A stretch of DNA of 18,952 nt from a virus (lineage: Duplodnaviria; Heunggongvirae; Uroviricota; Caudoviricetes). The position numbers and the translations under genes are program-made. The stretch is taken from positions 1 through 18,952 of the IMG/VR virus record IMGVR_UViG_2563366990_000003. The stretch is one strand, 5' to 3'. The notes under the pieces are model-generated. The model was not told where the DNA came from, did no database searches, and saw nothing but the letters and a program-made list of their open reading frames with translations. The first letter of the stretch is position 1. Every line of letters begins with the position of its first letter. Below, one piece after another: positions 3,826 through 18,952 of the stretch.

Positions 3826-4583
3826 TCACAACCTCCTTCCCTCCTCCCCGAAACGGACTCCACCGGCGAGGCCCGCCGCCTTCTGCATCAGTACATCATT
3901 TTCGTCCGGCGTCTCCGCCTGCCCTTCCTCTGCCTCCGGAGCGAACAGGCTGAAATCCGCCGGATGCATATCCGGATCGCAAAAAAACAGGCTGAGTACG
4001 GCGTACGTCAGCCCGGAAAAATGCATATCCAGCTGGGTATCCTGAAAATAATGCGTGCAGTAAAAACGTCGCCAGTCGGCATATTCGGTGGATGTCATCC
4101 CGGCAAGCATGGCGCGCCAGTCGGCTCTCCCCATCTCACGCGCCAGTTTCAGGACAAAGTTCAGCTCGCCTTCGAATGCTTTTTTGATGTTACCGGCTCA
4201 GTCGCTTCTGCTTTCCCGGTTGGTTCAGGATCGGCATCGTGCCGGTTATCCAGCATACCTGAAAGATAAAGCACCCGGTTCGTTGCCTGATTCAGTGCAT
4301 CAGCAGGCCATCCCAGCATCACTTCACGGCGGATCTGCTGCATCTCTGTCTCCGGAGATGCCAGAGTGCCTTTGAGGGAATGGGAATGCCATAGCGACAT
4401 CGCCACAAGCAGGGATGCCGTTTCCAGATATCGCTGGTTAATGTGCACGGCATCATGCTCCGTTGTCTCCTGTTGTGCTGCGTCTGAAACAAACTTCATA
4501 TAATCAAACCGCTGCAGCGCAGACAGCTCCGACAGCGTGACGGACACCCCGTTATATTCAAATTGTTCTGTTTTCAGGAACAT
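3826..4583 (-). CDS. Tail assembly chaperone G-T fusion, made by a programmed -1 ribosomal frameshift at 4179-4185
   Basis: The -1 frame relative to G is closed by TGA at 4198-4200 and open from 4197 down to a stop at 3826-3828. The only slippery heptamer in the G/T overlap is A_AAA_AAG. Predicted product is G residues 1-135 followed by about 117 T-frame residues. Lambda makes G-T the same way at the equivalent position. Confidence 0.8.
4161..4583 (-). CDS. G: Tail assembly chaperone G (zero-frame product)
   Basis: Internal ATG at 4583 with GGAGGAG RBS. The 140-aa product begins MFLKTEQFEYNGVSVTLSELSALQR, close to the lambda gpG N-terminus and the same length. The ORF-track start at 4697 lacks this support. 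Confidence 0.9.
   Translation of the reverse strand: MFLKTEQFEYNGVSVTLSELSALQRFDYMKFVSDAAQQETTEHDAVHINQRYLETASLLVAMSLWHSHSLKGTLASPETEMQQIRREVMLGWPADALNQATNRVLYLSGMLDNRHDADPEPTGKAEATEPVTSKKHSKAS
4179..4185 (-). promoter_or_regulatory. Slippery heptamer A_AAA_AAG for the G to G-T -1 frameshift
   Basis: Read directly: minus-strand TCA AAA AAG in the G frame, 6 codons before the G stop. It is the only X_XXY_YYZ site inside the window where both frames are open. Confidence 0.75.
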
Positions 4584-4599
4584 GCTTGATCTCCTCCCC

Positions 4600-5349
4600 T
4601 CAGCCCGCAGCGCCATCCGTGACGGTGATCTCCGCCACCGCCGCAAACTCACCGTTGCCGGTGACAACAGGGATCTGCGCTTTACCTGCCGCAACACCTT
4701 TCACGATGATCGTGTTCCCTTTCACGGTAATGGTGGCGAAATTCTGATTCGCTGAGGTTGCGCGGAACGTTTTATCCGTTGCGCCTTCCGGCTGAACGGC
4801 CACGGTCAGGGTGATATTCTGACCTTTTGCCACATTCCCCGTTAGTGGCGTCACGGTAATACCGGTGACCGGTGTGATTTCTCCCCGATCCTCAGCCAGC
4901 GACGGACGACCGATATTGGTGATTTTCACAGTGCGGGTGATCACTTCTTTGGCGGTCACGGATTTACCAATGGCGCTCACCCAGCCACGGAACACATCCA
5001 CCGTGCCGTTCGGGAAGCGGATTTTGTAGGCCCGGGTCTCGCTGCTGTCAAACCAGGCAATCAAATCACGCTGCCCTTTCTCGCCGGGCTTCCAGGCCAG
5101 CGTAAAACTGGTGTCACCGGCAGATTTCTGCCCCTGCCCGGTGGATACCCAGTCAGCATCCTCATCATCCAGATAGTTATCGTCGTAGGATTCCGCCGTC
5201 ATCTCGCCGGGGGTCAGATCCTTTATTTTTGCCAGGCGCGTCCAGTCATCATCTGACAGCGGGTTTGCCCAGGCATCGCCATTTCCGGTATAAACCCAGA
5301 GCGTGGTGCCGGAACCTTTTACCGGCGCAAGGGGATTAGGGAGCGTCAT
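4600..5349 (-). CDS. V: Major tail protein V, with C-terminal Ig-like domain
   Basis: 249-aa ORF with extensive similarity to lambda gpV along its length ([45 protein letters not shown]...[14 protein letters not shown]). ATG start. Confidence 0.95.
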
Positions 5350-5767: not shown

Positions 5768-6397
5768 TCATTTTCGTTTCAGCACCAGGCGTAACTGATG
5801 CGCCATGGCCGTCATCATCTGCGCCGGTAATTTTTCCCGGTACATCCGGTCCCGTTCACGTTCAAAGGTTTCTGCCAGCGGTCCGGCAGTCGGAATCTTC
5901 ACCACTTCGATCGGCAGACGGTGGCGTTTCGGCCTCCCTTTGCTGTCCGCGCCGCTGGACGATGGTGCCCACGGCATACGCTGCATCACATGCCAGCGTC
6001 CGTTAGCCAGCCGGGTGATAAAGGCGTCCGGGATCCGTCTTTTCCCCACAATCAGCACACTGCCGCCCCCTTTCAGGGCCGCACGCTGTCCTTTCTTTCT
6101 CCGTTTTCTGCGGGAAAGTCGAACGCGGGCCTCCCCCAGTTTGATGGCGGGCAGGTTGCCGGTATTGATGTAAACCTTTGCGTAAACCTTATCCGGTCGT
6201 GCCGGACTTAACCGGATGCGGGCACGGATAAGACGACGGGGAACGGCCAGCTCCCTGGCAACTGAAGAGGCCGTTTTCGCAATAATGGCCCCCGCCACGC
6301 GGTTCAGTGTCGTGGCAGAGGCCCGGGGAACGGCACGGCGGTCAATTGCATCCAGATTTTTCATGGCCTGCGCCAGACCTTTTATTGCCATACTCAT
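5768..6397 (-). CDS. Z: Tail completion protein Z
   Basis: Similarity to lambda gpZ (MAIKGL.QA..NL...RRKRRKKGQR...KGGGSVL.VG.RRIP.AFI..L.NGRWHVMQR). Start could be ATG at 6397 or the second Met at 6391. Confidence 0.9.
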   Translation of the reverse strand: MSMAIKGLAQAMKNLDAIDRRAVPRASATTLNRVAGAIIAKTASSVARELAVPRRLIRARIRLSPARPDKVYAKVYINTGNLPAIKLGEARVRLSRRKRRKKGQRAALKGGGSVLIVGKRRIPDAFITRLANGRWHVMQRMPWAPSSSGADSKGRPKRHRLPIEVVKIPTAGPLAETFERERDRMYREKLPAQMMTAMAHQLRLVLKRK

Positions 6398-6675
6398 TCC
6401 TGTTCGACAAAAATCCGGGGTTTACCGTTGTACGTGTCATAACGGGTCACCGTCAGTGTGCGCCCCGCAAACACAACAACATCATGACGGGCCGGACGGT
6501 ACCGGGCTGAAAACACCACCAGTGACAACTGGCTGCCCGAAAGCGCCCCCATCTCCGCGGACTCTTCCTCCGGCATCACGTCATACACTACGCCGTTAAT
6601 CTCCGCCTGTTTGCCCATCACCCGAACGGTCGCCCCGTCCATCCGGCAACACATTCGCGTAAACAGATCAGACAT
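6394..6675 (-). CDS. Head-tail joining protein, FII-like
   Basis: 93-aa ORF in the position of lambda FII, immediately upstream of Z, with weak by-eye resemblance to gpFII. Start is uncertain: ATG at 6675 overlaps the upstream gene by 8 nt and three further in-frame Met codons follow. Confidence 0.55.
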   Translation of the reverse strand: MSDLFTRMCCRMDGATVRVMGKQAEINGVVYDVMPEEESAEMGALSGSQLSLVVFSARYRPARHDVVVFAGRTLTVTRYDTYNGKPRIFVEQE

Positions 6676-6994
6676 TGATTTTTACCGCCACAGTGGCGCT
6701 GTTTGCAGGAGCATTTTCCCAGGCTACCCCCGCAGCCACCGCACCGTCTGCAGCCAGCTGCACAACCCCGTCCTTCAGATAAACCACCGCGCCGGACTGA
6801 ATATCGTCAGCAGACTGTTTGGGCAGCAGGAACACGCCTTCGGCAAAACCGTCACCGGCATCACCGGCAGGAATATCGGTAATGGCCACTGCCACCATAC
6901 TGCCGACCACCACCGCAGCACCGCTCAGGATGGTCTGATCTCCGGCATTCACCAGTTCAATGGTGGTGCCGTCCTGTACAAAATTTTTCGCCAT
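6668..6994 (-). CDS. Small Ala/Gly/Val-rich head protein (DUF2190-like; possible decoration or cement protein)
   Basis: 108-aa ORF directly downstream of the major capsid gene, with GGAGAAA RBS and ATG at 6994. Composition and position resemble the small head proteins that follow HK97-type capsid genes. The family assignment is from memory and the function is not established. Confidence 0.5.
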   Translation of the reverse strand: MAKNFVQDGTTIELVNAGDQTILSGAAVVVGSMVAVAITDIPAGDAGDGFAEGVFLLPKQSADDIQSGAVVYLKDGVVQLAADGAVAAGVAWENAPANSATVAVKINV

Positions 6995-7010: not shown

Positions 7011-7060
7011 ACAGCCCCTGTGGGGCTGTTTTTCAGGCATAAAAAAAGCCCTTTCGGGCA
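7011..7060. terminator. Paired stem-loops between the capsid gene and the next head gene
   Basis: Read directly. 7047-7058 forms GCCC-GAAA-GGGC followed by 7 T on the minus (sense) strand, 22 nt after the capsid stop. 7011-7029 forms an 8-bp stem (ACAGCCCC/GGGGCTGT) followed by T5 on the plus strand. Confidence 0.4.
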
Positions 7061-7081: not shown

Positions 7082-9061
7082 TCAGGCCACCGACGAACGC
7101 ACCAGACCGCGCCAGTCAAGTGGTGCCACACCGGCATCAATACGAATTTTTGTGGCAATGCCGTCAGTGGTGAAACCTTCCTGCTGATCAATGTATGGCG
7201 TGTCCACACCATCCAGCCAGGCCACTTCAATGGTGTCAGTGCCCTGTGCCGCCGCCAGATACCAGGTTTTCGGATCTGCCGCATCAAGACGCGCTTCCGC
7301 AATCACCTCAGCAAAGTTCTGGATGGGGTTAATGACACCGGCGTTTGCATCCGCCCCTTTCACACTGGCCGATTTGATGGTCTGGTTCGCCACCGTCTCC
7401 AGTGCCACCGGTACCAGCATAAAGGCCGGACGGATATTCAGGGCGCGCTCGCCTTCTTTCTGCAGGCGCATCATCTGACGGGCCGCATCCAGTCCGGAAA
7501 CGGAGATCCCGCCGGTGGCAATATTTTTGTGATCGGCATGGAACAGCGCCTTACCGTCGGACAGTTTCGGGTTATCCGTCAGCACCTTGTAAACCAGGTC
7601 ACCAATCGTTGCCTTCGCCGCACGCCCCATCTTCATCGGCACGTCCACCAGCATATTCAGATCATCATTGATAATGGCCTGGCGGGTGATGGAGAAAATC
7701 TCCCCGTAGGTGGCCAGAGCAATGGTCTCCTTGCGATCTGAGGTGGTGATGTATTTATACTCCGCCCCCTCACGAACCTGACGCAAAGAACCAAAACCGC
7801 CCATCCCCACGCGATACGCTGTTTTGAAGTCTGACAGGCGTCCCTTACGGGTCCACTTCTGGAAGGTTTCTTCTGATTCCTCCCAGCCCTGGATCAGCCC
7901 CTTGTTCGACACATCCAGCAGGATATTGCCAAAATCAGAGGTGCTGTGCGTAAGCGCCAGCCCGACCATCTGCATGGGGTTATAACTGGCCACCCCAATA
8001 CCGCGCTCCGTCAGTGACATACGAGCCCATTCACGCAGGGTCATCCCGTTATAGGCGTTATCCTTCTCGACATTTTCAAATCCGGCACGGGCCAGCATCG
8101 CCTGGCGGATCCCGTCTCCCACAAAATTGCCGTTTCCGGCATAAATATGGGCCGGTGTGTTTTTGTTGGTCGGCGAGGACTCCTTGCCCATTTCATTCAG
8201 CAGACGTTCACGGGCCATTTCCAGCGAACAGTCAGGATCAGCCACGCACTGTGCCTGAAGCGTCTGATAGCGACCGCCGAACATGGCAAACAGATCGTTA
8301 ATGCCTGACATGCGTGCTTTCTGCTCAGCCATAACGCGGGCGCGAATGGTCGCCTCATCAGACACTGCCGGTACCGGTGATGGTTCTGTTACCGCCGGTG
8401 CAGGGATTGTCACTGTGGTATCACGCGGGGCACTGTTGCGTGGTGGAGTAATCATGTTTCGGATGGATTCCGGCATCTTTTTAAATTCCTCTGTACGTTT
8501 TGACTGAATACATGCCATTGCCTCAACAGCGGGTGTCACCTGGTCAGCAAATCCGTGTGCCAGACATTCGGCACCGGACATCCAGGTTTCATCCGCCAGC
8601 ATGGCGGCAATTTCATCGGTGGTTTTTCCGGTTTTCTGCGCATAGGCTGGCAACAGTACCGATTCGACTTTATCCAGCAAATCAGCATAACTGCGCATAT
8701 CCTCAGCATCCCCGCCACTGAATCCCCATGGCTTATGGATCATCATGAAGGCATTTTCCGGCATAATGACCGTATCACCGGCCATCGCAATCACAGATGC
8801 CATCGAGGCGGCAACGCCATCCACATACACGGTAATGGTCGCCCCCTGATTTTTCAGGGCATTAAAAATGGCGATGCCTTCAAAGACATCGCCACCCGGT
8901 GAGTTGATGTGGAGATTAATGTGGGTGATATCACCCAGAGCATTCAGTTCGCTGACAAACTGCTTCGCGGTAACTCCCCAGAAACCAATCTCGTCATAAA
9001 TATAAATATCCGCGTCACCCGGCCCCCCAGCCTGCATCCTGAACCAGGATTTATTCTTCAT
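7082..9061 (-). CDS. Fused prohead protease (S49/ClpP-like) - scaffold-like linker - HK97-fold major capsid polyprotein
   Basis: About 659 aa from ATG 9061. The N-terminal part has the serine-protease-like region (HINSPGGDVFEGIAIFNAL...MASVIAMAGD). The middle is a charged helical segment. The C-terminal roughly 320 aa looks like an HK97-type capsid protein. The ORF-track GTG at 9253 would overlap the portal by 200 nt, so I prefer 9061, which overlaps the portal stop by 11 nt. Confidence 0.85.
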   Translation of the reverse strand: MKNKSWFRMQAGGPGDADIYIYDEIGFWGVTAKQFVSELNALGDITHINLHINSPGGDVFEGIAIFNALKNQGATITVYVDGVAASMASVIAMAGDTVIMPENAFMMIHKPWGFSGGDAEDMRSYADLLDKVESVLLPAYAQKTGKTTDEIAAMLADETWMSGAECLAHGFADQVTPAVEAMACIQSKRTEEFKKMPESIRNMITPPRNSAPRDTTVTIPAPAVTEPSPVPAVSDEATIRARVMAEQKARMSGINDLFAMFGGRYQTLQAQCVADPDCSLEMARERLLNEMGKESSPTNKNTPAHIYAGNGNFVGDGIRQAMLARAGFENVEKDNAYNGMTLREWARMSLTERGIGVASYNPMQMVGLALTHSTSDFGNILLDVSNKGLIQGWEESEETFQKWTRKGRLSDFKTAYRVGMGGFGSLRQVREGAEYKYITTSDRKETIALATYGEIFSITRQAIINDDLNMLVDVPMKMGRAAKATIGDLVYKVLTDNPKLSDGKALFHADHKNIATGGISVSGLDAARQMMRLQKEGERALNIRPAFMLVPVALETVANQTIKSASVKGADANAGVINPIQNFAEVIAEARLDAADPKTWYLAAAQGTDTIEVAWLDGVDTPYIDQQEGFTTDGIATKIRIDAGVAPLDWRGLVRSSVA

Positions 9062-10553
9062 GCTGGCTTTCGGTGTCACGCTGATACTGTCGTTCAGTTC
9101 CGGCACTGTTGCCTCCTTTGTCGTTGACGGGGTCAGTATCAAAGACCAGCCCCAGTCTGCTGTTTTCATCAATTTCAGCCTTGCGGCGACGTTTGACCTC
9201 ATCCGGATTGCGCCCGCCGGCACGCACCCAGTCAGATTCTGTCGCTGCACCACCCCGGATCTGAATTCTCCAGGCTTCAGCTTCCTTAACCGGGTCGATC
9301 CACGGCATCACCGGACCGGAATACGTCGCGTTATATAGCGTTTTCATCTCCACATCCGCCGGAATTTTCAGCAGACCTGCCGCAACCACCATATTCAGCC
9401 ATGTCCGGTACACCGGGCGGGTTACCGCGCCAATAAAACAGTCCTGCAGGATCAGGTAACCATCCGTGGACTCGACCAGCTCCTGCCGCTGGGCGCTGTA
9501 GGTGCCGTTATAGTTACGCGCCGCACTGGAAAAACTCAGACGACTGCCAGCTGCCACTGCACGCAACTGGCCGTTGCGGAAAGTTTCAAGGTTGGGATTG
9601 GGACGGTCAGATTTGACCATGCCGATATCCTCGCCCTTGCGCAAATCGTCATAAATAATACCCGGGGTGATATGGACTTCCCGCTCGGTTTCTTTGATCC
9701 CCGGATCTTCATAGTCCTGTCCGTCACCTTTACGGATATACAGTCCCAGCGCCGCAGCAATACGCGCCGCTGTCAGTTCCGCATCCTCATACTCTTTAAG
9801 GGCACTGATCCGCATCAGCACCCCCGATAACATGGATGAGCCTCGCGTCTGATGCAGACGACGAGTGAACTTCAGGTGGATCATTTTTCCGGCAGCGATT
9901 TCTTTCGTATCACTCTGCCGGCCGCTGACCGGATAATTTTTATAAACCAGATATTTTTTCGGTCTTCCCCACTCATCAAGAAAAACCCCCTGATTCAGCC
10001 CGGCGGATTCATCAGTGCGCATGGGAACAAAATCCGGCTCCATCGCCTCAAGCCAGAATGGCACTCCCGCCGTCCGTTCCAGACCGTTTCCCGCACCACT
10101 GACCATCTGCGCAAACACTTCACCATCCCGCAGCCAGGTCCGCAGCAGTAAACGTTCAAGCACGGGACGGGTATACTGCCCTGTCACATCCGGACTCACG
10201 GACCATTCAGCCCACAACCGGCGGATATCCGCAGCCAGCTCTGCCACCATTTCCCCGTTTTTTCGTAATGGCTGAGGCTCCACAATAATTCCCCTGGCAC
10301 CAATCACCCGCTCTTCCAGCTTGTCAAACACACCAATCACCAGGTCATGATTGATATCCAGAAAACGGACCTGCTCCCGCAGGGAAACCGCACCGTATTT
10401 ACTGAGCTGATCAGCAGAGCGATTTTCCCGCCGGGCTTTATGTGTCCGGGTCGGTTTCACCGCCTCATAGGCCATGATTAACGCCCTTGAACGCAGTCTG
10501 GCTGCTTTCCATCCGGGGGAAAACACGCCTATCACATCATCAATAATTGCCAT
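9051..10553 (-). CDS. Portal protein
   Basis: 500-aa ORF between the W-like gene and the protease/capsid gene. Size, position and acidic C-terminal tail are typical of lambda-family portals. ATG start overlaps the W-like stop. Confidence 0.88.
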   Translation of the reverse strand: MAIIDDVIGVFSPGWKAARLRSRALIMAYEAVKPTRTHKARRENRSADQLSKYGAVSLREQVRFLDINHDLVIGVFDKLEERVIGARGIIVEPQPLRKNGEMVAELAADIRRLWAEWSVSPDVTGQYTRPVLERLLLRTWLRDGEVFAQMVSGAGNGLERTAGVPFWLEAMEPDFVPMRTDESAGLNQGVFLDEWGRPKKYLVYKNYPVSGRQSDTKEIAAGKMIHLKFTRRLHQTRGSSMLSGVLMRISALKEYEDAELTAARIAAALGLYIRKGDGQDYEDPGIKETEREVHITPGIIYDDLRKGEDIGMVKSDRPNPNLETFRNGQLRAVAAGSRLSFSSAARNYNGTYSAQRQELVESTDGYLILQDCFIGAVTRPVYRTWLNMVVAAGLLKIPADVEMKTLYNATYSGPVMPWIDPVKEAEAWRIQIRGGAATESDWVRAGGRNPDEVKRRRKAEIDENSRLGLVFDTDPVNDKGGNSAGTERQYQRDTESQHEE

Positions 10554-10789: not shown

Positions 10790-12885
10790 GGATTATCTTC
10801 CGCACGCTCCGTCCGCAGTTTTTTCTTCCGGCGACGGCGTTTTTCTGCCCCGGCCGTCAGTTCCGGGGATACCGTTTCACCAGAACGCGCCTGCGGGAAG
10901 ACGAGCCACGTTTCCCGCTGTGCCCAGTCCGGTGCGGAGGGCCAGCGGATCTTTTCATAACCATGCAGAACAGCAAGCGCATCCGCATAAACCAGCAGGT
11001 CAAACGCCTCGTTAGCGCCCCTGCCCGGTTTTCGCCATTTTCCGTCACTGCCGCGCTCTTCATAGGTCAGCTCATCGTAAAACCACCGCCCCAGCCAGTC
11101 GGGAAAGTGGATATAGTTCGGCCCTGGTGTGTCACGCCACAGGGCATTATTTACACGGTCCTTAAACGCATCCGTCTGAACCAGCCACAGCGCGACATCG
11201 CCACTGGCTCTGGCACGGCGGGCACTTCTGCCGGTATTATCCGGGAAGGTACGGTTAATCAGCCTGTCACGGCGAAGACCATCCCCCTTGAACAGAAACA
11301 CCCTGTTGCCCAGTCCGTCACTCCGGCAACGACGCCAGAAACGATAGGCGTTATCTGTCACCCCGGCTTCCCCTCCCGTATCCACCGCCATGGCCATCAG
11401 ACGCATGCGCACATCCGGATCAGAAGCCAGCGGCCATGTTTTATGGAACACATCCGTCAGCAACAAATCCCAGTCCTCCGGATATGCCGCCGGATCAACC
11501 GGCAGACTTTCACCGTTGGGACTGCATCGCAGTGAATGCCGGATGTTGTAGCGATCAACAATCCAGCGTTCCCCCTGCTCTCCGTATCCGGTGATCTGCA
11601 CAACAAAACGGCGATTTTTACCGCCCTGTACGTCAACCGTTGCCTCAATAAAACGCACACCATCCGGCACAGATCGCCGGGGAAACGGCTCGGCACGCTG
11701 TTCAAGCAGTTCACTTTTACGCTGTTCCGTGGCTGAACGGGGCAGATAGGGTCGTCCGATATCGGTGTTCACCACCGCTTTCAGGGTCTCTTCACTGCCG
11801 GTTCGCTCATACTCTTCTTCTGCCGCCAGCAGCTTAAAAATCAGTTGTTCCCAGGTCTGAAACGCCGCAGCCGGCCCCTCCATCCAGAAACTTGCTATTC
11901 TGGAATTTCGGGGGGTTCCGGTGATACTGCCATCCGCCGCTGCCCGTTCGCCTTCCCGCAGCCAGATCCCCTGGTTATTCAGTTCACGCTTCTGTTCCGG
12001 AGCAATCAGGCCGCGGCAGTGCGGACACATCAGGCGGGCCGCCTGCCCGGCAGCCACAAAATCAGGGTTATTCCGGTAACCGGTCATGTTATCCATCACC
12101 GGCTGAAAATATTCCCCGCAGTGCGGACACGGCCAGTACCACCGGCGGCGGTCTCCCCGGTTATACAGTGACAGGATCCCCGTTGTTGGCGGTGCCTCAT
12201 GTGCGCCACCACAACGCCATTTGGTATCGGTGATATCCCGCCCGGGCGAACTTTCGACCAGGGTCATCCCCGAGGACATAAAGGTGGTGGTACGCTTTGA
12301 GGCCAGGGTGAAGGCATCCCCTTCCCCGTCCACGTTTTCAGGGAAACGGTCATAATCCGTCAGCGCCACACGACGGTAATCCGAGGAGGAAAATACGGTG
12401 ATCGACGGCCAGCCAATTTTCAGGAATGAGCCGTCAAGAAACATTTTATCGTGGACGTTGTTGTCATTACGGGAAGGGCTGAGGCGTTTGCAGACCTCCG
12501 GGCTGTGGCGAAACGTCCTGGAAAGACGCGTTCTGGAATGCTCACGCGCCTTCGTCTCGGTCATCTGCACCACCAGCATGTCAGCCGGATCACAGATGAT
12601 GCCGTACACAATCCAGCCATCAATCAGCCCTTCGGTTTTCCCGGTTCGCGCCGGTCCGACAAACACCACCGCGTCATATTCACGGGCTGATAATGTATTA
12701 ATGGGGTCTATCATATAGGGCGTCAGCGATGACTCCCACGGACCGGAAGTATTGGCTCCCCGTGGTACCCGCATATAACGCCTGATGGCTTCCGCTACTG
12801 GTAACCGGCCAGGTGGGCGAAACAGCGAGGCCACTTCGCGCCAGATATCGGATGCGCGGCTATGGCTCTCGTTCACCTGATTCAC
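10762..12885 (-). CDS. Terminase large subunit (lambda gpA family)
   Basis: 707-aa ORF with a Walker A-like motif (VGPARTGKT), Cys-rich segments (CPHCGEYF, CPHCRG) and a basic C-terminal tail. The start is a GTG at 12885 that overlaps the small-subunit stop; no in-frame ATG is nearby. The exact start is uncertain. Confidence 0.88.
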   Translation of the reverse strand: MNQVNESHSRASDIWREVASLFRPPGRLPVAEAIRRYMRVPRGANTSGPWESSLTPYMIDPINTLSAREYDAVVFVGPARTGKTEGLIDGWIVYGIICDPADMLVVQMTETKAREHSRTRLSRTFRHSPEVCKRLSPSRNDNNVHDKMFLDGSFLKIGWPSITVFSSSDYRRVALTDYDRFPENVDGEGDAFTLASKRTTTFMSSGMTLVESSPGRDITDTKWRCGGAHEAPPTTGILSLYNRGDRRRWYWPCPHCGEYFQPVMDNMTGYRNNPDFVAAGQAARLMCPHCRGLIAPEQKRELNNQGIWLREGERAAADGSITGTPRNSRIASFWMEGPAAAFQTWEQLIFKLLAAEEEYERTGSEETLKAVVNTDIGRPYLPRSATEQRKSELLEQRAEPFPRRSVPDGVRFIEATVDVQGGKNRRFVVQITGYGEQGERWIVDRYNIRHSLRCSPNGESLPVDPAAYPEDWDLLLTDVFHKTWPLASDPDVRMRLMAMAVDTGGEAGVTDNAYRFWRRCRSDGLGNRVFLFKGDGLRRDRLINRTFPDNTGRSARRARASGDVALWLVQTDAFKDRVNNALWRDTPGPNYIHFPDWLGRWFYDELTYEERGSDGKWRKPGRGANEAFDLLVYADALAVLHGYEKIRWPSAPDWAQRETWLVFPQARSGETVSPELTAGAEKRRRRKKKLRTERAEDNPWITSGGWL

Positions 12886-13358
12886 ATATCGGCCTCATCA
12901 CAACAGTCAATGACTGCCTTTTCCAGTGTGTCGCGGATCTCATCAACCACAATCTGTACTTCATTCAGTTGTGATGCGGTCCACCCCCTGTCCCTCTCCA
13001 GCCGGTCAGGCCAGGTTTCCAGTACCTGAACTATCGCTTTCACCACGACAGAAAACGACCGCCTGACATCACTGACAGGCACGAGCAGACCGGTTTCCTG
13101 CTCAAATTTCAGTCGGTCACGTTCTGACTGGTACCATGCTTTACGCGCATGAGGATCCATTTCCTCGTTATCTACAGGCAGAGGAGCTTTCATCAGTTCG
13201 GCAAGGATATCTGTCAGTCGGTACAGTTTGAGATTGCTCTCATGACCACCGGCTGGGCTTATGTTTTTTACCCGAGCCGCGACAGTCTGTCGATGAGCAC
13301 CGGATAATGCGGCCAGTTGGGAAATATTCAGATGCAGATTTTTTAATTCACGATCCAT
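12882..13358 (-). CDS. Terminase small subunit (Nu1-like)
   Basis: 158-aa ORF with an N-terminal HTH-like segment (ISQLAALSGAHRQTVAARV), a strong GGGGGAG RBS, and a position directly upstream of the large subunit and about 150 bp downstream of the cos-like site. Confidence 0.78.
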   Translation of the reverse strand: MDRELKNLHLNISQLAALSGAHRQTVAARVKNISPAGGHESNLKLYRLTDILAELMKAPLPVDNEEMDPHARKAWYQSERDRLKFEQETGLLVPVSDVRRSFSVVVKAIVQVLETWPDRLERDRGWTASQLNEVQIVVDEIRDTLEKAVIDCCDEADM

Positions 13359-14025: not shown

Positions 14026-14493
14026 CTAGTTAATACACTGAGTGCGGATATATTCCTGCGCCCCTTCCAGCTGCTTCTGCATTGTCATCAACCGTTCTCT
14101 GAGGATGAAATAATCCCGTTCAGCGGTGTCTGCCAGTCGGGGGCCGGTTGCATTATCCACGCCGGAGGTGCCGGTGGCTTCACGCACGGTACCGTGGCAG
14201 GTGGCGTTGATCCGCAGGCGCTTACGACCAGCGGCAACATCAGCACGCAGAGTTTCATTTTCAGCTCTCGCATCGGCTAATTCCCTCGAGTATTTTGCAT
14301 CGAGCGCAGCAACATCGCGCTGGCGCACCTGCATATCAGTAATGGTGGCATTCGCCTGTTCCAGCTCTCTGGCTTTTTTATCGCGCTGCGCTTTGTAGGT
14401 GATGGCGTTATCGCGGTAATGATTCAGCCCCAGACTAAGCGCACCACAGGCCACCAGCAAGGCAATGATGACCACACACAGAACGCGGTTCAT
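14026..14493 (-). CDS. Rz: Rz i-spanin
   Basis: 155-aa ORF with an N-terminal TM segment ([18 protein letters not shown]) and a charged coiled-coil-like periplasmic part. Position downstream of the endolysin and the embedded Rz1 frame support the call. Confidence 0.85.
14088..14273 (-). CDS. Rz1: Rz1 o-spanin (lipoprotein), embedded in the +1 frame of Rz
   Basis: 61-aa ORF with a lipobox (LVVSAC) and a Pro-rich mature part ([27 protein letters not shown]) closely resembling lambda Rz1. ATG at 14273 confirmed. Confidence 0.82.
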
Positions 14494-14494
14494 T

Positions 14495-14593
14495 TCACCA
14501 CCAGCGTATCTGACCGATGAAATAACCGGAGGCCATAATCACAAACACCAGCCAGATAAGGATGAACTTCCAGGTGGATAATTTTTCAGCCAT
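14495..14593 (-). CDS. 32-aa single-pass membrane peptide ORF, not in the ORF track
   Basis: Read directly: GGGAGA RBS, 8-nt spacer, then ATG at 14593. Translation is [32 protein letters not shown]. Its TGA stop is separated from the Rz ATG by one nucleotide. Confidence 0.4.
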
Positions 14594-14668
14594 CACTCGA
14601 ATCTCCCGAATCAGTTTGCTAAAATTAAACACACTTTCTCCTTTGACTTTTCCGGAGTCAGGAAACAC

Positions 14669-14702
14669 AAAACCCCGCTTGCTACCAACAAACGGGGTTT
14701 TT
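14669..14702. terminator. Bidirectional intrinsic-terminator-like hairpin between the endolysin and the small ORF/Rz
   Basis: Read directly: 9-bp stem AAAACCCCG/CGGGGTTTT with a 15-nt loop, flanked by T-rich tracts on both strands. Confidence 0.4.
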
Positions 14703-14791
14703 ACTTTTATTCACTTAGGTTTTGCCAGTTCGCAGGATTTCGTGTTATCCGTCCGCGTTGGCCAACGTCATTTTTCAGCAAAATATTCTGC

Positions 14792-15325
14792 TTATCTGTC
14801 GATTCCCCAGCACGCCAGCGCGCTCTCCTGGTCACGACGGGATATCTGGCCGTAACAGTTGTTTGAGCGGATACGGCAGTCTCTGCCACCGTCCTTAATC
14901 CACCAGCGAATCGCTTCACACGCTCCCCTGCGATCGCCTGCATTAATTCGTTTATAAAACGTCGACGGGAAACACTTACCGGGGCCAATGTTATACGGGC
15001 AGAATGACGCAATACCCGCTTTCTGGGGTTCGGTCAGTGGCACTCTGATGTTTTTCTCCACCCATGCCAGCGCCTTATCCCGTTCGATAGCGTTAACCCG
15101 GTCGCATTTTTCCTTCGACAGCTTCATGCCAGGAATCACAGGCTTACCATCCACCATGATGGCACCCCGGCAGATGGTCCAGATACCCGCACCATCACGG
15201 TATGCCGTGGTGTGGTTGCCTTCCTTTTCATCCAGAAACTGGTCGAGGATTTCAGGCGCAGAAGCCCCTGCGGCAATCAGCGCCAGAACGGCAGCTGACA
15301 GGCCGTATTTGATTTTTGCGTTCAT
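14792..15325 (-). CDS. R: SAR endolysin (phage lysozyme, GH24 / T4-lysozyme fold)
   Basis: 177-aa ORF. The N-terminus has a weakly hydrophobic Gly/Ala-rich SAR-like segment (YGLSAAVLALIAAGASAPE). The catalytic E-x8-D-x5-T triad is present (EGNHTTAYRDGAGIWT). It matches my recollection of the R lysozyme of Shiga-toxin-type lambdoid phages. ATG at 15325. Confidence 0.9.
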   Translation of the reverse strand: MNAKIKYGLSAAVLALIAAGASAPEILDQFLDEKEGNHTTAYRDGAGIWTICRGAIMVDGKPVIPGMKLSKEKCDRVNAIERDKALAWVEKNIRVPLTEPQKAGIASFCPYNIGPGKCFPSTFYKRINAGDRRGACEAIRWWIKDGGRDCRIRSNNCYGQISRRDQESALACWGIDR

Positions 15326-15352
15326 GGATATTTATCAGGATTTATAGCTCTC

Positions 15353-15403
15353 TTATTCCTGGATATGTCAGATATATAATCCGGTACTCACGATGAATAT
15401 AAT
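15353..15403 (+). promoter_or_regulatory. Candidate sigma70 promoter(s) for the plus-strand 106-aa ORF
   Basis: Read directly: TATAAT hexamers at 15375-15380 and 15398-15403 in a very AT-rich intergenic region 50-75 bp upstream of the ATG at 15451. The -35 elements are poor (TTATTC). Confidence 0.3.
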
Positions 15404-15450
15404 CAACAGGCACCAGGACACACCCGGTAACAACAAATGAGATTTTATAA

Positions 15451-15771
15451 ATGAATAATAATGACAACAATTTACGCAAAGAGTTTTTGCAGATAATGAA
15501 CGAAAATGTTAAATCAGAATTAAAAGCGCTTATCCCGGATAATAGCGAAACCACTCAGGCCATTCTCTCAGAGCCTTACGGCATGCTTTCAACAGAAACA
15601 CTGGATATCATTATCACCACATTAACACCATTGATGCTTCAGCATCTGAAGCACAACATTAACAAATGGTTTAATGACGAACTCAGTCACCCGGGTTGTT
15701 CATGGGATAAAAACTTTGCCTGTCTGCAAAAAAAACGGCTCTTCAATAAACTATCGCTTAAGTTCAGATAA
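15451..15771 (+). CDS. Hypothetical 106-aa protein, plus strand, convergent with and overlapping the 3' end of the 385-aa gene
   Basis: It is the only plausible plus-strand gene in the window. It is AT-rich, Asn/Lys/Leu-rich and predicted helical. ATG at 15451, weak RBS. No family recognised. Confidence 0.5.
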   Translation: MNNNDNNLRKEFLQIMNENVKSELKALIPDNSETTQAILSEPYGMLSTETLDIIITTLTPLMLQHLKHNINKWFNDELSHPGCSWDKNFACLQKKRLFNKLSLKFR

Positions 15772-16921
15772 CCGCCCCAAACCGCCCTTTCAGATAAGTC
15801 AGCCCCGGCTGGATCCAATCATCTGGCTCAGTCTTAAAGGGTGGAGTATTGAAATCACGAAGAACGGTCTCCCGCACAACTGCATCCTTATCAGCACCAC
15901 TGACCAGCGCTTCAATCTCAGCGGCTACCTGCAGATACCCCATGCAACGACCAATGCGCTTCATTAGTCCCTGCTTTTTATTGTTCTTCAGGTAATCAAT
16001 GGCAAATTCAATGAGCGTCTCACAGTGCTGGTGCGATGGCGGTGTTACTTTTCCATTTTCTGAGATAGTTATTTTCCCGTCATCACCGGATACAACAAAG
16101 GATGGCCGGTTACACTCCCATTCCTGGTCACTGAAATCTACCTTCAGAAAGAACGGCCCGATTTTTGTAAAGGAACCTTTGGCATCGTTCCCCTCATGAC
16201 GGAATACACCGACTCCGGCGGTAACGAGTTCACCGGTTATCGTATTTGTGTCTATTTCGATGCTTACGGGAATGGAACAGAGGATACCTGGACTTCTCTC
16301 AACATCATGTTTGATGGCCTCATGAAAGCCACCAAAAGAATGAGCAATGAAACAATCACTGGCGAGATGCGTCCCCTTTAAAAAATTATCCAGAATCTCA
16401 CTATTTGCAGAGCGCTCTCTGTTTTTTTGAATACGGAAACACTCTGCGAGATTTCTGCTCATCACTTTCCGGCAATAATCGTAAAACGCCGCGAACTGCT
16501 CATCACGGCGTTTTTTTTCACCTTCGGAAGGGATCTGCACCGACAGTTTTTTATTCAGTTCAACGACGCTGTTCTCCAGTTTTTCAATGCGTGATTCGAT
16601 ATCATCTTTTTCTGACTGTATCGTGTTATATGCATTGTTAATTTGTATGGTATACCGCTCTTCTGAACAGAGGCGCTTTTCCCGTGACTGTTCATCCCCT
16701 TCACATAAAGCGGCAGCAATATCCATGAAAAACTGCTTCGCCTTCTTTTTCGCCTCAGCTTCGTAAAATTCCAGCGTGGCACCTTCAGTACGGTCAAGAC
16801 TAATCGCCACATATGGCGACAACAACGACGGCTGCCCGGCAATTTCCAGTGCCACAGTAACAGTAATCTTATCCGGGTAATTATTTATCCCTTTAACAAC
16901 CAGTTCGTATTGTTTATTCAT
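15764..16921 (-). CDS. Hypothetical 385-aa protein inserted between holin and endolysin; function unknown
   Basis: ATG at 16921 lies 3 nt after the holin stop, with GGGGAGAG as RBS. The ORF is long and uninterrupted in AT-rich DNA. Architecture by eye: N-terminal domain, a central charged heptad-like segment (about aa 85-170) and a C-terminal Cys/His-containing domain. No signal peptide or TM segment. No family recognised. Confidence 0.8.
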   Translation of the reverse strand: MNKQYELVVKGINNYPDKITVTVALEIAGQPSLLSPYVAISLDRTEGATLEFYEAEAKKKAKQFFMDIAAALCEGDEQSREKRLCSEERYTIQINNAYNTIQSEKDDIESRIEKLENSVVELNKKLSVQIPSEGEKKRRDEQFAAFYDYCRKVMSRNLAECFRIQKNRERSANSEILDNFLKGTHLASDCFIAHSFGGFHEAIKHDVERSPGILCSIPVSIEIDTNTITGELVTAGVGVFRHEGNDAKGSFTKIGPFFLKVDFSDQEWECNRPSFVVSGDDGKITISENGKVTPPSHQHCETLIEFAIDYLKNNKKQGLMKRIGRCMGYLQVAAEIEALVSGADKDAVVRETVLRDFNTPPFKTEPDDWIQPGLTYLKGRFGAVI

Positions 16922-16924
16922 CGT

Positions 16925-17140
16925 CTACTCTCCCCGTGCCGCCTTGCGCCGGTCCTCTTTAATTTTGAAATACAGGTTTGTCAGGTACGTCAGCAACCCA
17001 AACAGCAGACTCCCCAGCACACCTATTGCCGCCCACTGAGACGGGGAAACCCTGTCCAGCAACTGCAGGAACCAGTAGCCCGTTCCCACCGCTGACGTGG
17101 TGTATGACACACCTGTTGTGATTTTTTCCATCTGGTACAT
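16925..17140 (-). CDS. S: Class II holin of the phage 21 S21 pinholin family, with dual-start motif
   Basis: 71-aa product [71 protein letters not shown], near-colinear with S21 as I recall it. It has two TM segments and Met1/Met4 starts (antiholin/holin). GGAG RBS. The ORF-track start at 17194 is a GTG further upstream. Confidence 0.9.
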
Positions 17141-17216
17141 ACCCCGTCTCCCGCAATCCGGAAGCTCACAACAATATAAAGACCACCGGCACACACCGAT
17201 GGTCCCTTGCGCATGC

Positions 17217-17462
17217 TTACATCATCATGTCGCTGTCAGGTGTGGGTTCACCGCCATCTGAAGCACTCCCGTCACCCGCAATGCCTTCCGGCTCCGGAAC
17301 TGCCGGTGCGCCCAGCAGTTCATCCAGAATGGCATCCACTTCTGCATCAAGACGCGACTCAAGGTTCTGGCGGAGTTTCTGTTTCAGTGCGCTCAGGACT
17401 TCTTCAGAGCGCAGGACTTCCTTCACTGCTTCAGCAGTGACCAGGGATGTGATTTCTGACAT
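17217..17462 (-). CDS. Hypothetical acidic 81-aa protein upstream of the holin
   Basis: ATG at 17462, following the 60-aa ORF stop by 26 nt. Product [51 protein letters not shown]... is helical and acidic with non-random composition. The RBS is weak. Confidence 0.5.
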
Positions 17463-17487
17463 GGGATTTTCTCGCTGAAAGGGGTTG

Positions 17488-17670
17488 TTAAGGAGTAACG
17501 GGCTCTTCGGGTTTGCTTCCGGCTGACTGACTGGCGCTGATTTTCTCAGCGGCCCTTTTATCAATCTGCCTGCGCCAGAAATCGCGCACGGCCCTGTACC
17601 CACCCGAAAGAAGATACAGCACACAGACCGCCGTACAGAAGTACAGCATCACCTGATGAATAAATGTCAT
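17488..17670 (-). CDS. Hypothetical 60-aa small membrane protein
   Basis: ATG at 17670. One predicted TM segment (VMLYFCTAVCVLYLLSGGY) followed by a basic/polar tail. Same strand and operon context as the lysis genes. Confidence 0.45.
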   Translation of the reverse strand: MTFIHQVMLYFCTAVCVLYLLSGGYRAVRDFWRRQIDKRAAEKISASQSAGSKPEEPVTP

Positions 17671-17770
17671 AATTTCTTACCGTTATGGTTGACTAAGTAA
17701 ACAGTTTTCATTTAAAAATGCCGATGACGAAAGTGGTAGTATCTTTCCTTGATTCTCCATGAATCTCACA

Positions 17771-17806
17771 CCGCCAGAGGTCTCAGGCAACTGGCGGCTT
17801 TTTTTA
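17771..17806 (+). terminator. Plus-strand intrinsic-terminator-like hairpin, abutting the stop of the large minus-strand ORF
   Basis: Read directly: 7-bp GC-rich stem CCGCCAG/CTGGCGG with a 13-nt loop, followed by C plus T7 on the plus strand only. The minus strand has no U-tract after the stem. Confidence 0.4.
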
Positions 17807-18952
17807 TCATGCCGCGGCATCCGCGTTGTTCACTTCCACCTTCACACTGTCAATCAGCAGCGTATATGTCGCCGCCTTTGATATGCCTGTCAGTTGCAGT
17901 TTGTCCGCCGCCCCTGATGCCGGAGATTTCACCAGTGTGAACGGTGTACCCCGTTTCTCATCCAGTACCGGCGTCACCTGAATGCTGTTGTTTCCGGCAA
18001 ACTCAAAAGCCAGTGTGTGCCATCCGTTATCAAAGACCCCGAACGTATCCAGCTTCGCATTCTGCTTCTTGTGGTACATCGCGTTCAGGTTCGTCGCATC
18101 CGTCTGCAGGAAGAAGGACATCAGCATGTCGTTGCCTTCCTCTGACAGCGTCACTCCCTCCGGCAGGGACGACAACTGCCAGTAAATACCCAGGGCAAAC
18201 TGATTCGGCACCAGTGCGCCCGGCACCTTAAACCGCACGCTCACACGTCCGCCTTTCTTCAGCAACTCTGCCCCCTGCCCGGCGGCATCATGCTCCAGAA
18301 ACCAGATGTGGCTTTCCGGTTTGTTCAGTTGCAGGGCCTTACCACCGGTGGCACCCTCATCACTGACCACGGCCTCAGCGATGTTTTTATCAACACTGTC
18401 TCCGCTCGCCGGTTTGTGATAATAGCGCCAGCCCTGTGATGCCAGGTCTTCACCGGACGCCAGCAGACTCATCAGGGTTCGGTTACTGACCGGGGCTTCC
18501 GGCTCTCTCTCCGGGCCTTCACCGGAAGGTCCGGTGGGCTTCACCGTATCAGGCTGTTTTCCGGTAATGAATTCAGCGGTTCTCCCGGCATGCACCAGAA
18601 TCGCCGTTGCCAGACGGTCGGAAATAATCCCACGGCGAGCCCATGAACTGAAATGGCTGGCCCTGTCCACAGATGTCCAGGTCTTCTGGTCATTACGCCA
18701 CTTTGAACCGTAATAACCGACGGCTTCCAGGTCCGGGTCTTCTGCCGGGTCATTGGTCTGCACATTCGCACCATTCTCATCCGTCATTAACGGTACAAAG
18801 AAAATGTTCTGCGACTCCTTACCCTTATACCCTCCGTATACTGATGCATACCCTTCCGCATGACGCTGCTTCCAGAAATACGTTGTGTCCCCGCAAACCC
18901 ACGGTACCGCTGATGCGCTGCCTCCTGTGCTCTGTGATGCCTGACCGGCAAG
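17807..18952 (-). CDS. C-terminal 381 codons of a larger late-operon protein truncated at the window edge; possibly NanS-p-like
   Basis: The frame is open from 18952 down to TGA at 17807-17809; the ORF track shows only the part from the first in-frame ATG at 18787. Large ORFs in this position upstream of the holin in Shiga-toxin-type prophages are NanS-p-like sialate O-acetylesterases as I recall. I cannot confirm this by sequence recognition. Confidence 0.6.
   Translation of the reverse strand, partial: LAGQASQSTGGSASAVPWVCGDTTYFWKQRHAEGYASVYGGYKGKESQNIFFVPLMTDENGANVQTNDPAEDPDLEAVGYYGSKWRNDQKTWTSVDRASHFSSWARRGIISDRLATAILVHAGRTAEFITGKQPDTVKPTGPSGEGPEREPEAPVSNRTLMSLLASGEDLASQGWRYYHKPASGDSVDKNIAEAVVSDEGATGGKALQLNKPESHIWFLEHDAAGQGAELLKKGGRVSVRFKVPGALVPNQFALGIYWQLSSLPEGVTLSEEGNDMLMSFFLQTDATNLNAMYHKKQNAKLDTFGVFDNGWHTLAFEFAGNNSIQVTPVLDEKRGTPFTLVKSPASGAADKLQLTGISKAATYTLLIDSVKVEVNNADAAA

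What the first reader, a model, noticed from the sequence alone, without database searches (positions are those of the whole stretch)
7082..9061. Single-polypeptide protease-scaffold-capsid head module in an otherwise lambda-like gene order
Lambda encodes the protease C, scaffold Nu3 and capsid E separately. Here one roughly 659-aa ORF has an S49/ClpP-like protease N-terminus, a charged helical linker and an HK97-fold capsid C-terminus, and its start overlaps the portal stop. The head module is therefore of a different lineage from the lambda-like tail module, a clear case of modular mosaicism, and it implies autoproteolytic maturation of the capsid subunit.
Basis: partly seen in the sequence, partly recalled or inferred. 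Interest (0 to 1): 0.4.

Follow-up and report, generated by a model that had tools for sequence, protein, structure and literature searches.

The report
Fused protease–scaffold–capsid phage head gene
The window carries one long prophage gene that joins a ClpP-like head-maturation protease, a scaffold-like linker and the major capsid protein, but this is an ordinary member of a named family first studied in Salmonella phage Gifsy-2.

Summary
On the minus strand, one uninterrupted reading frame ends at 7082 and encodes three parts in order. They are a ClpP-like serine protease, a Pro-rich and helical middle region, and a Mu-gpT/HK97-type capsid domain.

It is not new. The protein scores 1004 bits against NCBIfam NF045540, [quoted passage not shown] (cutoff 475). 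It is 62% identical over its full length to the Gifsy-2 "tripartite capsid gene" product (Effantin et al. 2010) and sits in the same gene order. About 2,000 of 5,426 complete E. coli genomes carry it, including Stx prophages.

- The protease is ClpP/S14-like, not S49.
- Lambda's Nu3 is nested inside C, so it is not a separate gene.
- The family-conserved start is probably GTG 9106 (674 aa, AGGAGG 5 nt upstream), not ATG 9061.
- The middle region is not one charged helix. It is a short conserved charged segment, a variable Pro-rich linker and a helical segment of about 58 aa.

Head–tail mosaicism is confirmed: tail proteins are 43–80% identical to lambda, head proteins 24% or less.

One untested lead remains. 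An invariant internal Met-Pro with an upstream Shine-Dalgarno-like motif could give a protease-free scaffold–capsid product.

The parts
7082..9106 (-). Fusion ORF, 674 aa and 73 kDa from GTG 9106, stop TGA 7084-7082. The alternative annotated start, ATG 9061, gives 659 aa.
   Evidence: NF045540 at 1004.5 bits. 62% identical to the Gifsy-2 product.
9112..9117 (-). Shine-Dalgarno AGGAGG, 5 nt upstream of GTG 9106, inside the end of the portal gene.
8534..8971 (-). ClpP-like serine protease domain (residues 46-191 of the 674-aa form). Ser101 is at 8806-8804, His124 at 8737-8735, and Glu173 at 8590-8588 aligns with the ClpP catalytic Asp.
   Evidence: Pfam CLP_protease E 1.7e-36. NF045542 at 224 bits. 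Alignments to solved ClpP structures. The three residues are invariant in A1 and A5. Coordinates checked.
8450..8515 (-). Conserved charged segment ACIQSKRTEEFKKMPESIRNMI (residues 198-219), containing the invariant Met211-Pro212.
   Evidence: Homology to the second fusion family starts here.
8474..8491 (-). Candidate internal translation start: GAGGA (8491-8487), a 10-nt spacer, then ATG 8476-8474 (Met211). This is hypothetical.
8357..8449 (-). Pro-rich linker (residues 220-250, 26% Pro), variable in length and sequence.
   Evidence: Predicted non-helical, at low confidence.
8183..8356 (-). Helical scaffold-like segment (residues 251-308, 28% charged).
   Evidence: AF2 predicts helices 251-274, 281-289 and 295-308. 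This is the only region with pLDDT 61-84. Composition.
7085..8149 (-). Capsid region (residues 320-674, 38.7 kDa). The core Phage_capsid_4 / Mu-gpT-like domain lies at 7094-7969.
   Evidence: Pfam Phage_capsid_4 E 6.5e-56 and Mu-like_gpT E 1.2e-9. A profile hits solved Mu-gpT-type capsid chains 8rkc and 9jod at about E 4e-10.
9051..10553 (-). Lambda-family portal gene. Its 3' end overlaps the start of the fusion gene.
   Evidence: Pfam Phage_portal_2 E 4e-79. 64% identical to the Gifsy-2 portal and 22% to lambda B.
6668..6994 (-). 108-aa cement/decoration protein (DUF2190 / Phage_cement_2) directly downstream.
   Evidence: Pfam E 7.8e-19. 54% identical to the Gifsy-2 107-aa protein. The same position is occupied in Vibrio and Ralstonia phages.
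7041..7059 (-). Terminator-like hairpin GCCC-GAAA-GGGC followed by T7, between the fusion and cement genes.
   Evidence: Conserved in position in Gifsy-2 and in a Pseudomonas phage.

Best explanation
This is the major head gene of a lambdoid, Stx-phage-type E. coli prophage. [quoted passage not shown]

Likely mechanism:
1. The gene is translated from a start that overlaps the end of the portal gene, giving a polyprotein of about 73 kDa (shown from the sequence).
2. The C-terminal Mu-gpT/HK97-type domain assembles around the portal into a procapsid. The protease and scaffold-like regions face inward, playing the roles of HK97 gp4 and the delta domain, or of lambda C/Nu3 (inferred).
3. The ClpP-like Ser101-His124-Glu173 protease then removes the N-terminal 310-390 residues, leaving a mature capsid protein of roughly 31-40 kDa (inferred; the cleavage site is not known here).
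4. After DNA packaging by the gpA-type terminase and shell expansion, the 108-aa DUF2190 cement protein binds the shell as lambda gpD does (inferred from the Gifsy-2 work as cited).
5. The finished head joins a tail of clearly lambda lineage.
For: Family membership: NF045540 at 1004.5 bits against a cutoff of 475, PHROG 133 full length, and Pfam CLP_protease plus Phage_capsid_4. PGAP gives the gene that name in E. coli genomes.

Gifsy-2 homology and synteny: 62% identity over the whole length. The portal is 64% identical and the cement protein 54%. The order is the same: small terminase, large terminase, small ORF, portal, fusion, cement, 93-99 aa ORF, Z, U, V, G, T, H, M.

[quoted passage not shown] 2010, Virology 402:355). 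Gifsy-2 has a trimeric decoration protein at the 3-fold axes (PMC8538268).

Protease: Ser and His align with the ClpP catalytic residues and are invariant.

Capsid domain: a profile of the domain matches solved Mu-gpT-type capsid chains at E 3.4e-10.

No other capsid gene lies between the portal and gpZ.

The gene is intact in at least 82 phage records and 2,015 E. coli genomes.
Against: Nothing here shows directly that this copy is expressed or cleaved. The Effantin paper could not be read, so its contents come from my memory and from papers that cite it. AF2 on a shallow alignment failed (mean pLDDT 35.8), so the HK97 fold of the C-terminal domain rests on sequence and profile homology only. 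The third triad residue is Glu rather than the canonical Asp. The mature N-terminus cannot be placed more precisely than residues ~309-389. An internal start could mean that most capsid subunits are never linked to a protease.
Confidence: 0.9

Rival explanations
1. It is a nested gene rather than a pure polyprotein. Besides the full-length protein, ribosomes start at the invariant Met211 (ATG 8476). That would make a ~50 kDa scaffold-capsid protein without protease, as lambda makes Nu3 inside C. The full-length form would then be a minor, protease-delivering species.
For: Met211-Pro212 is invariant in 27 homologues and in a Pseudomonas phage at 58% identity. AGGA lies 9-10 nt upstream in the window, Gifsy-2 and the Pseudomonas phage. 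The MCP2-type Ralstonia phage has an unrelated N-terminal domain, yet carries GAGAGAGGAAAACACC-ATG-CCT at the equivalent boundary. Homology to NF045541 and PHROG 4523 begins at this residue. Apart from the portal overlap, codons 199-209 have the lowest synonymous diversity in the gene among 15 sequences (0.5-2nd percentile).
Against: Among 6 well-diverged lineages the synonymous dip reaches only the 4th-8th percentile. The conserved E-E-F residues could by themselves produce the GAGGA motif. The spacer of 9-10 nt is on the long side. Vibrio phage 1.049.O has no clear SD at its equivalent Met. There are no expression data. A full-length-only procapsid seems physically possible by my own rough packing estimate.
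Confidence: 0.2
2. The gene encodes only a protease/scaffold ('head-tail preconnector', 'Nu3', 'Clp protease'), as many database records label it, and the real capsid protein is encoded elsewhere.
For: Annotations such as 'protease/scaffold protein', 'head-tail preconnector protease C' and 'Nu3' appear on homologues.
Against: The C-terminal 290+ residues match capsid families strongly. No other capsid-like ORF exists in the head module: only 108-aa and 93-aa genes lie between it and gpZ. Other records label the homologue 'major capsid protein'.
Confidence: 0.02
3. The long ORF is an artefact, or an inactive remnant in a decaying prophage: two genes joined by a sequencing error or a recent mutation.
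For: Prophages in EHEC-type strains are often defective. The VT1-Sakai copy of this very gene is split by IS629.
Against: The fused frame is conserved from E. coli to Salmonella, Pseudomonas, Citrobacter and Kosakonia, and it has its own curated NCBIfam model. This copy has no interruption.
Confidence: 0.03

Closest known systems
Salmonella phage Gifsy-2 tripartite capsid gene (STM1034.3n; Effantin et al. 2010, Virology 402:355)
   Same: Same three-part layout: ClpP protease, a central region of about 100-200 aa, then the capsid protein. It is 62% identical over the full length. The neighbours match: lambda-family portal upstream with an overlapping start, a DUF2190 cement protein downstream, then a PF13856 protein and lambda-like Z, U, V, G, T, H, M.
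   Different: The Pro/Gln-rich linker differs in sequence and length, and Gifsy-2 has an 8-aa insertion before the capsid region. The annotated Gifsy-2 protein is 696 aa against 674 or 659 aa here. The host is E. coli (Stx-prophage type) rather than Salmonella.
NCBIfam NF045541 scaf_prot_MCP2 / PHROG 4523 (e.g. Vibrio phage 1.049.O, Ralstonia phage YO135_4)
   Same: Also a single ORF of about 670-700 aa placed after the portal and followed by a DUF2190 cement gene. Its linker, scaffold and capsid part is homologous to residues ~211-674 here (28-33% identity).
   Different: The N-terminal ~200 aa are unrelated to ClpP. The window protein scores 417.7 bits, below the model's cutoff of 525, so it is not a member.
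Phage lambda C / Nu3 / E / D head genes
   Same: Same position in the late operon, between portal and tail genes. The same functional set is present: protease, scaffold, HK97-fold capsid protein and decoration protein. Lambda also links protease to scaffold in one frame.
   Different: There is no significant sequence similarity to C, Nu3, E or D. Lambda C is an S49 peptidase. In lambda the capsid gene is separate and the decoration gene comes before it rather than after it.
HK97 gp4 protease plus gp5 (delta domain-capsid), and stand-alone ClpP-like prohead proteases (e.g. Vibrio phage K311)
   Same: The working logic is the same: a scaffold domain fused to the N-terminus of the capsid protein and removed by a phage protease inside the procapsid. 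The K311 stand-alone protease is 49-52% identical to the N-terminal domain and has the same Ser, His and Glu.
   Different: There the protease is a separate gene, and the K311 capsid protein belongs to another Pfam family (PF05065). The HK97 protease has a different fold (from my own knowledge, not tested).
Actinobacteriophage 'major capsid and protease fusion' proteins (clusters EE, AN, AX, CW, etc.)
   Same: They are described in print as protease-scaffold-capsid fusions in siphoviruses (PMC7302621).
   Different: The hosts are unrelated and the genomes are small. Sequence relationship to this family was not tested.

Membership tests
NCBIfam NF045540 (ClpP-like prohead protease/major capsid protein fusion protein) | Whole-protein HMM score above the curated cutoff (475 bits), with end-to-end coverage | tested here: met
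   1004.5 bits; residues 17-657 match profile positions 2-651 of 652.
Gifsy-2-type tripartite capsid gene | A single uninterrupted ORF with an N-terminal ClpP domain, a central non-catalytic region and a C-terminal capsid domain | tested here: met
   (62% identity over 669 aligned positions).
Gifsy-2-type tripartite capsid gene | Genomic context: a lambda-family portal immediately upstream and a small decoration/cement gene immediately downstream | tested here: met
Gifsy-2-type tripartite capsid gene | The precursor is processed to a mature capsid protein, giving a T=7 shell decorated with trimers | not testable with these tools
   This needs virion proteomics or cryo-EM. It is known for Gifsy-2 only through citing papers (PMC12315714, PMC8538268).
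ClpP / MEROPS S14-like serine protease fold | Pfam CLP_protease match above threshold, with catalytic Ser and His conserved | tested here: met
   126.3 bits against a cutoff of 20.2. Ser101 and His124 align with the ClpP catalytic residues and are invariant.
ClpP / MEROPS S14-like serine protease fold | Catalytic Asp as the third triad member | tested here: not met
   The aligned position is Glu173, invariant across the family and in the stand-alone K311 protease. It is an acidic residue but not Asp. The functional consequence is unknown.
   SppA_dom scores 27.2 bits against a cutoff of 155. Pfam Peptidase_S49 is not listed at E <= 0.01. There is no significant BLASTP match to lambda C.
HK97-fold major capsid protein (Mu gpT-like branch) | Sequence or profile homology to capsid proteins of solved structure | tested here: met
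   Pfam Phage_capsid_4 at 191 bits and Mu-like_gpT at 38.4 bits against a cutoff of 20.1. A profile hits chains 8rkc, 8rkx and 9jod at E 3-5e-10.
HK97-fold major capsid protein (Mu gpT-like branch) | Three-dimensional fold (A and P domains, E-loop, N-arm) | tested here: inconclusive
   The AF2 model has mean pLDDT 35.8 and the C-terminal region is below 50. No fold search was attempted.
NCBIfam NF045541 (scaf_prot_MCP2) | Score above the 525-bit cutoff | tested here: not met
   417.7 bits, and only residues 198-656 align.

The most novel reading that the evidence does not exclude
The 'single polypeptide' may in fact be a nested gene pair. A conserved internal start at Met211 (ATG 8476, GAGGA 10 nt upstream) would make a protease-free scaffold-capsid protein as the main building block. 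The full-length protein would then be a minority species that brings the protease into the procapsid. That would set the protease-to-capsid ratio by translation, as lambda does with C and Nu3. The same device may exist in the unrelated-protease MCP2 family. I do not know whether this has been tested for Gifsy-2.
Probability: 0.2. Interest if true: 0.4.

Novelty: already known. Interest (0 to 1): 0.12.

Why it matters
It matters little as a discovery. The architecture was published for Gifsy-2 in 2010, has its own NCBI naming model, and is present in over a third of complete E. coli genomes. The practical value is in annotation. Many records still call this gene 'Clp protease', 'Nu3' or 'head-tail preconnector' and therefore appear to lack a capsid gene. 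The start codon is also called inconsistently (659 versus 674 aa). The family has no atomic structure detectable by sequence in the PDB. Its cleavage site, and whether an internal start is used, seem open. Those would be modest but testable questions about how a phage sets protease:capsid stoichiometry.

Tried and rejected
1. AlphaFold2 on the 674-aa protein with a 26-sequence alignment (76-100% identity) gave mean pLDDT 35.8. Only residues 251-308 were usable. I therefore ran no fold search and spent no second AF2 job.

2. I tried to read Effantin et al. 2010 by PubMed id, but it is not held. A five-term literature search found nothing.

3. A CBASS-escape preprint mentioning a 'prohead protease fusion' turned out to concern a protease-scaffold protein, not this architecture.

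4. The search for related loci on viral contigs returned only close relatives (77-100% identity), so it could not give an independent deep test of the internal-start idea.

5. The synonymous-site scan looked striking with 15 partly redundant sequences. It weakened to the 4th-8th percentile with six diverged lineages, so I treat it as suggestive only.

6. The consensus terminator scan missed the 4-bp GC hairpin with T7 after the gene. That hairpin was found by folding and alignment instead.

7. I rejected the S49 assignment, the 'protease/scaffold only' annotation and the sequencing-artefact explanation. The reasons are given under the rival explanations.

Full report
**Observation**

All long ORFs in the window lie on the minus strand. 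The frame holding the finding is open from 9253 down to a TGA at 7084-7082. It overlaps the portal stop codon (TAA 9053-9051) by 11 nt.

**Start codon**

A GTG at 9106 lies 15 codons upstream in the same frame and has AGGAGG 5 nt before it. ATG 9061 has no Shine-Dalgarno motif. In an alignment of 27 homologues most begin 'MP(E/K/Q)..' at the position of this GTG, and many have no Met at the position of ATG 9061. The annotated Gifsy-2 start also aligns with the GTG. The 100%-identical database representative is 674 aa long and stands for 3,481 sequences. NCBI's pipeline annotates the 659-aa version. I take 7082-9106 (674 aa, 73 kDa) as the more likely gene, which gives a 56-nt overlap with the portal gene.

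**Domains**

- Pfam finds CLP_protease at residues 31-176 (E 1.7e-36) and Phage_capsid_4 at residues 365-656 (E 6.5e-56), plus Mu-like_gpT (659-aa numbering).
- NCBIfam NF045540, 'ClpP-like prohead protease/major capsid protein fusion protein', matches end to end at 1004.5 bits against a cutoff of 475.
- PHROG 133 also matches full length.
- S49-type models are far below threshold, and lambda C gives no significant BLASTP match. The protease is ClpP/S14-like, not S49.
- Solved ClpP structures align over residues 39-182. Their catalytic Ser and His fall on Ser101 and His124 (674-aa numbering). The ClpP catalytic Asp falls on Glu173.
- All three residues are invariant in the family and in a stand-alone ClpP-like prohead protease of Vibrio phage K311.
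- A profile of the C-terminal region hits solved Mu-gpT-type capsid chains (8rkc, 8rkx, 9jod) at E 3-5e-10. No closer solved structure exists by sequence.

**Middle region**

The region is not one charged helix. It has four pieces:
- a conserved, 36%-charged segment (residues 198-219);
- a 31-aa linker that is 26% Pro and varies in sequence and length between homologues (220-250);
- a 58-aa segment (251-308) that is 28% charged;
- a short variable junction (309-319).

AlphaFold2 on a shallow alignment failed overall (mean pLDDT 35.8). It predicted residues 251-308 as three helices with pLDDT 61-84. No fold-level claim is made for the rest of the protein.

**What it is**

The protein is 62% identical over its whole length to the Gifsy-2 product annotated 'Clp protease involved in capsid processing'. 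The neighbourhood is the same gene for gene:
- a DUF1441 small-terminase candidate;
- a gpA-type large terminase;
- a small ORF;
- a lambda-family portal (64% identical);
- the fusion gene;
- a DUF2190 cement protein (54% identical);
- a PF13856 'Gifsy-2' protein;
- then Z, U, V, G, T, H, M, L.

The Gifsy-2 gene is the subject of Effantin et al. [quoted passage not shown] I could not read that paper. [quoted passage not shown] Another lists Gifsy-2 among phages with a trimeric decoration protein at the 3-fold axes (PMC8538268). Protease-scaffold-capsid fusions are also described as common in small actinobacteriophages (PMC7302621).

**Distribution**

- The gene is 95.9-99.1% identical at DNA level to 12 phage records. 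These are phage 1720a-02, VT1-Sakai, ASU11, CP-1639 and several Stx2-converting phages. It is about 78% identical to the mEp460, cdtI and Ayreon group.
- 82 phage records carry a full-length relative, including Pseudomonas phages at 58% identity.
- 2,070 of 5,426 complete E. coli genomes have a match, and 2,015 of them cover at least 80% of the gene. NCBI names it as the fusion protein.
- The closest chromosomal copy lies in an Stx2b prophage.

**Mosaicism**

Against lambda, the tail proteins are 43-80% identical: Z 53%, U 55%, V 75%, G 43%, T 72%, H 50%, M 80%, L 76%. TerL and portal are only 24% and 22% identical. The fusion and cement proteins have no significant match to C, Nu3, E or D. 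The junction lies between the 93-aa gene (6394-6675) and Z (5768-6397). The premise that lambda encodes C, Nu3 and E 'separately' is not quite right, because nu3 is nested in-frame inside C.

**Evolutionary context**

Residues ~211-674 (linker, scaffold, capsid) are homologous to the same part of a second fusion family. That family is NF045541 / PHROG 4523, seen in Vibrio phage 1.049.O and Ralstonia phage YO135_4. Its N-terminal ~200 aa are unrelated to ClpP. Both families sit between a portal and a DUF2190 cement gene. The ClpP-like domain also occurs as a separate gene next to an unrelated capsid gene in Vibrio phage K311. The cassette is therefore old and modular.

**Mechanism**

The steps below are inferred, except where marked:
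1. Translation gives the ~73 kDa precursor (shown from the sequence).
2. The capsid domains assemble on the portal with protease and scaffold inside.
3. The concentrated protease removes the N-terminal part.
4. The shell expands on DNA packaging.
5. The cement protein binds.

The mature N-terminus lies somewhere between the variable junction (~309) and the start of the Mu-gpT-like core (~389). That corresponds to a mature protein of 31-40 kDa.

**An open lead**

Met211-Pro212 is invariant and sits exactly where homology to the second family begins. AGGA lies 9-10 nt upstream in the window, Gifsy-2 and a Pseudomonas phage. The Ralstonia MCP2-type gene has GAGAGAGGAAAACACC-ATG-CCT at the equivalent boundary.

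Synonymous diversity over codons 199-209 is the lowest in the gene, apart from the portal overlap, among 15 sequences. It reaches only the 4th-8th percentile among six diverged lineages. An internal start giving a protease-free scaffold-capsid protein, as with lambda C/Nu3, is therefore possible but unproven. I put it at about 0.2.

**Verdict**

The finding is real and correctly interpreted in outline, but it is an ordinary member of a described and curated family. Novelty: already known. Interest: low.

Noticed in passing
window 9104-9117 (minus strand): Start-codon disagreement. GTG 9106 with AGGAGG 5 nt upstream matches the family-conserved N-terminus (674 aa). NCBI PGAP and phage 1720a-02 annotate ATG 9061 (659 aa).
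   Followed up: yes
window 7041-7059 and 7012-7028 (minus strand): A GCCC-GAAA-GGGC hairpin followed by T7 lies 23 nt after the fusion-gene stop. It is conserved in position in Gifsy-2 and, as a different GC stem with a T-rich tail, in Pseudomonas phage BR200a. A second hairpin precedes the cement-gene ribosome-binding site. It could be a partial terminator or an mRNA-stabilising element between the capsid and decoration genes.
   Followed up: partly
window 8588-8590 (minus strand): The residue aligned with the ClpP catalytic Asp is an invariant Glu (Glu173). This holds in this family and in a stand-alone phage ClpP-like prohead protease, which suggests a Ser-His-Glu arrangement.
   Followed up: partly
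window 8474-8515 (minus strand): Invariant Met211-Pro212 with an upstream GAGGA and locally reduced synonymous variation. This is a possible internal translation start giving a protease-free scaffold-capsid product.
   Followed up: partly
phage VT1-Sakai AP000400.1 23239-26723 (hit H2): The 98.7%-identical copy of this gene in the Stx1 phage VT1-Sakai is split in two by an IS629 insertion, so that prophage's capsid gene is disrupted.
   Followed up: no
window 3826-4697 (minus strand): Lambda-like tail chaperone genes G (PF06894) and T (PF06223) lie in the arrangement expected for the G/GT programmed frameshift. The mechanical G ORF (178 aa from GTG) is about 38 aa longer than the part that aligns with lambda G.
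   Followed up: no
window 14500-17000 and 15764-18787: The late-region end of the window has lower GC (45-50% against 55-60% in the structural genes). It carries the lysis genes (lysozyme 14792-15325, Rz 14026-14493) plus DUF1327, DUF826 and DUF6645 ORFs typical of Stx-phage late regions. In the closest chromosomal relative the DUF6645 gene is twice as long and stx2b lies just beyond it.
   Followed up: no
window 12882-13358 (minus strand): The gene in the small-terminase position is a DUF1441 protein with no significant similarity to lambda Nu1 (E 0.28). Gifsy-2 annotates its counterpart as the small terminase subunit.
   Followed up: no
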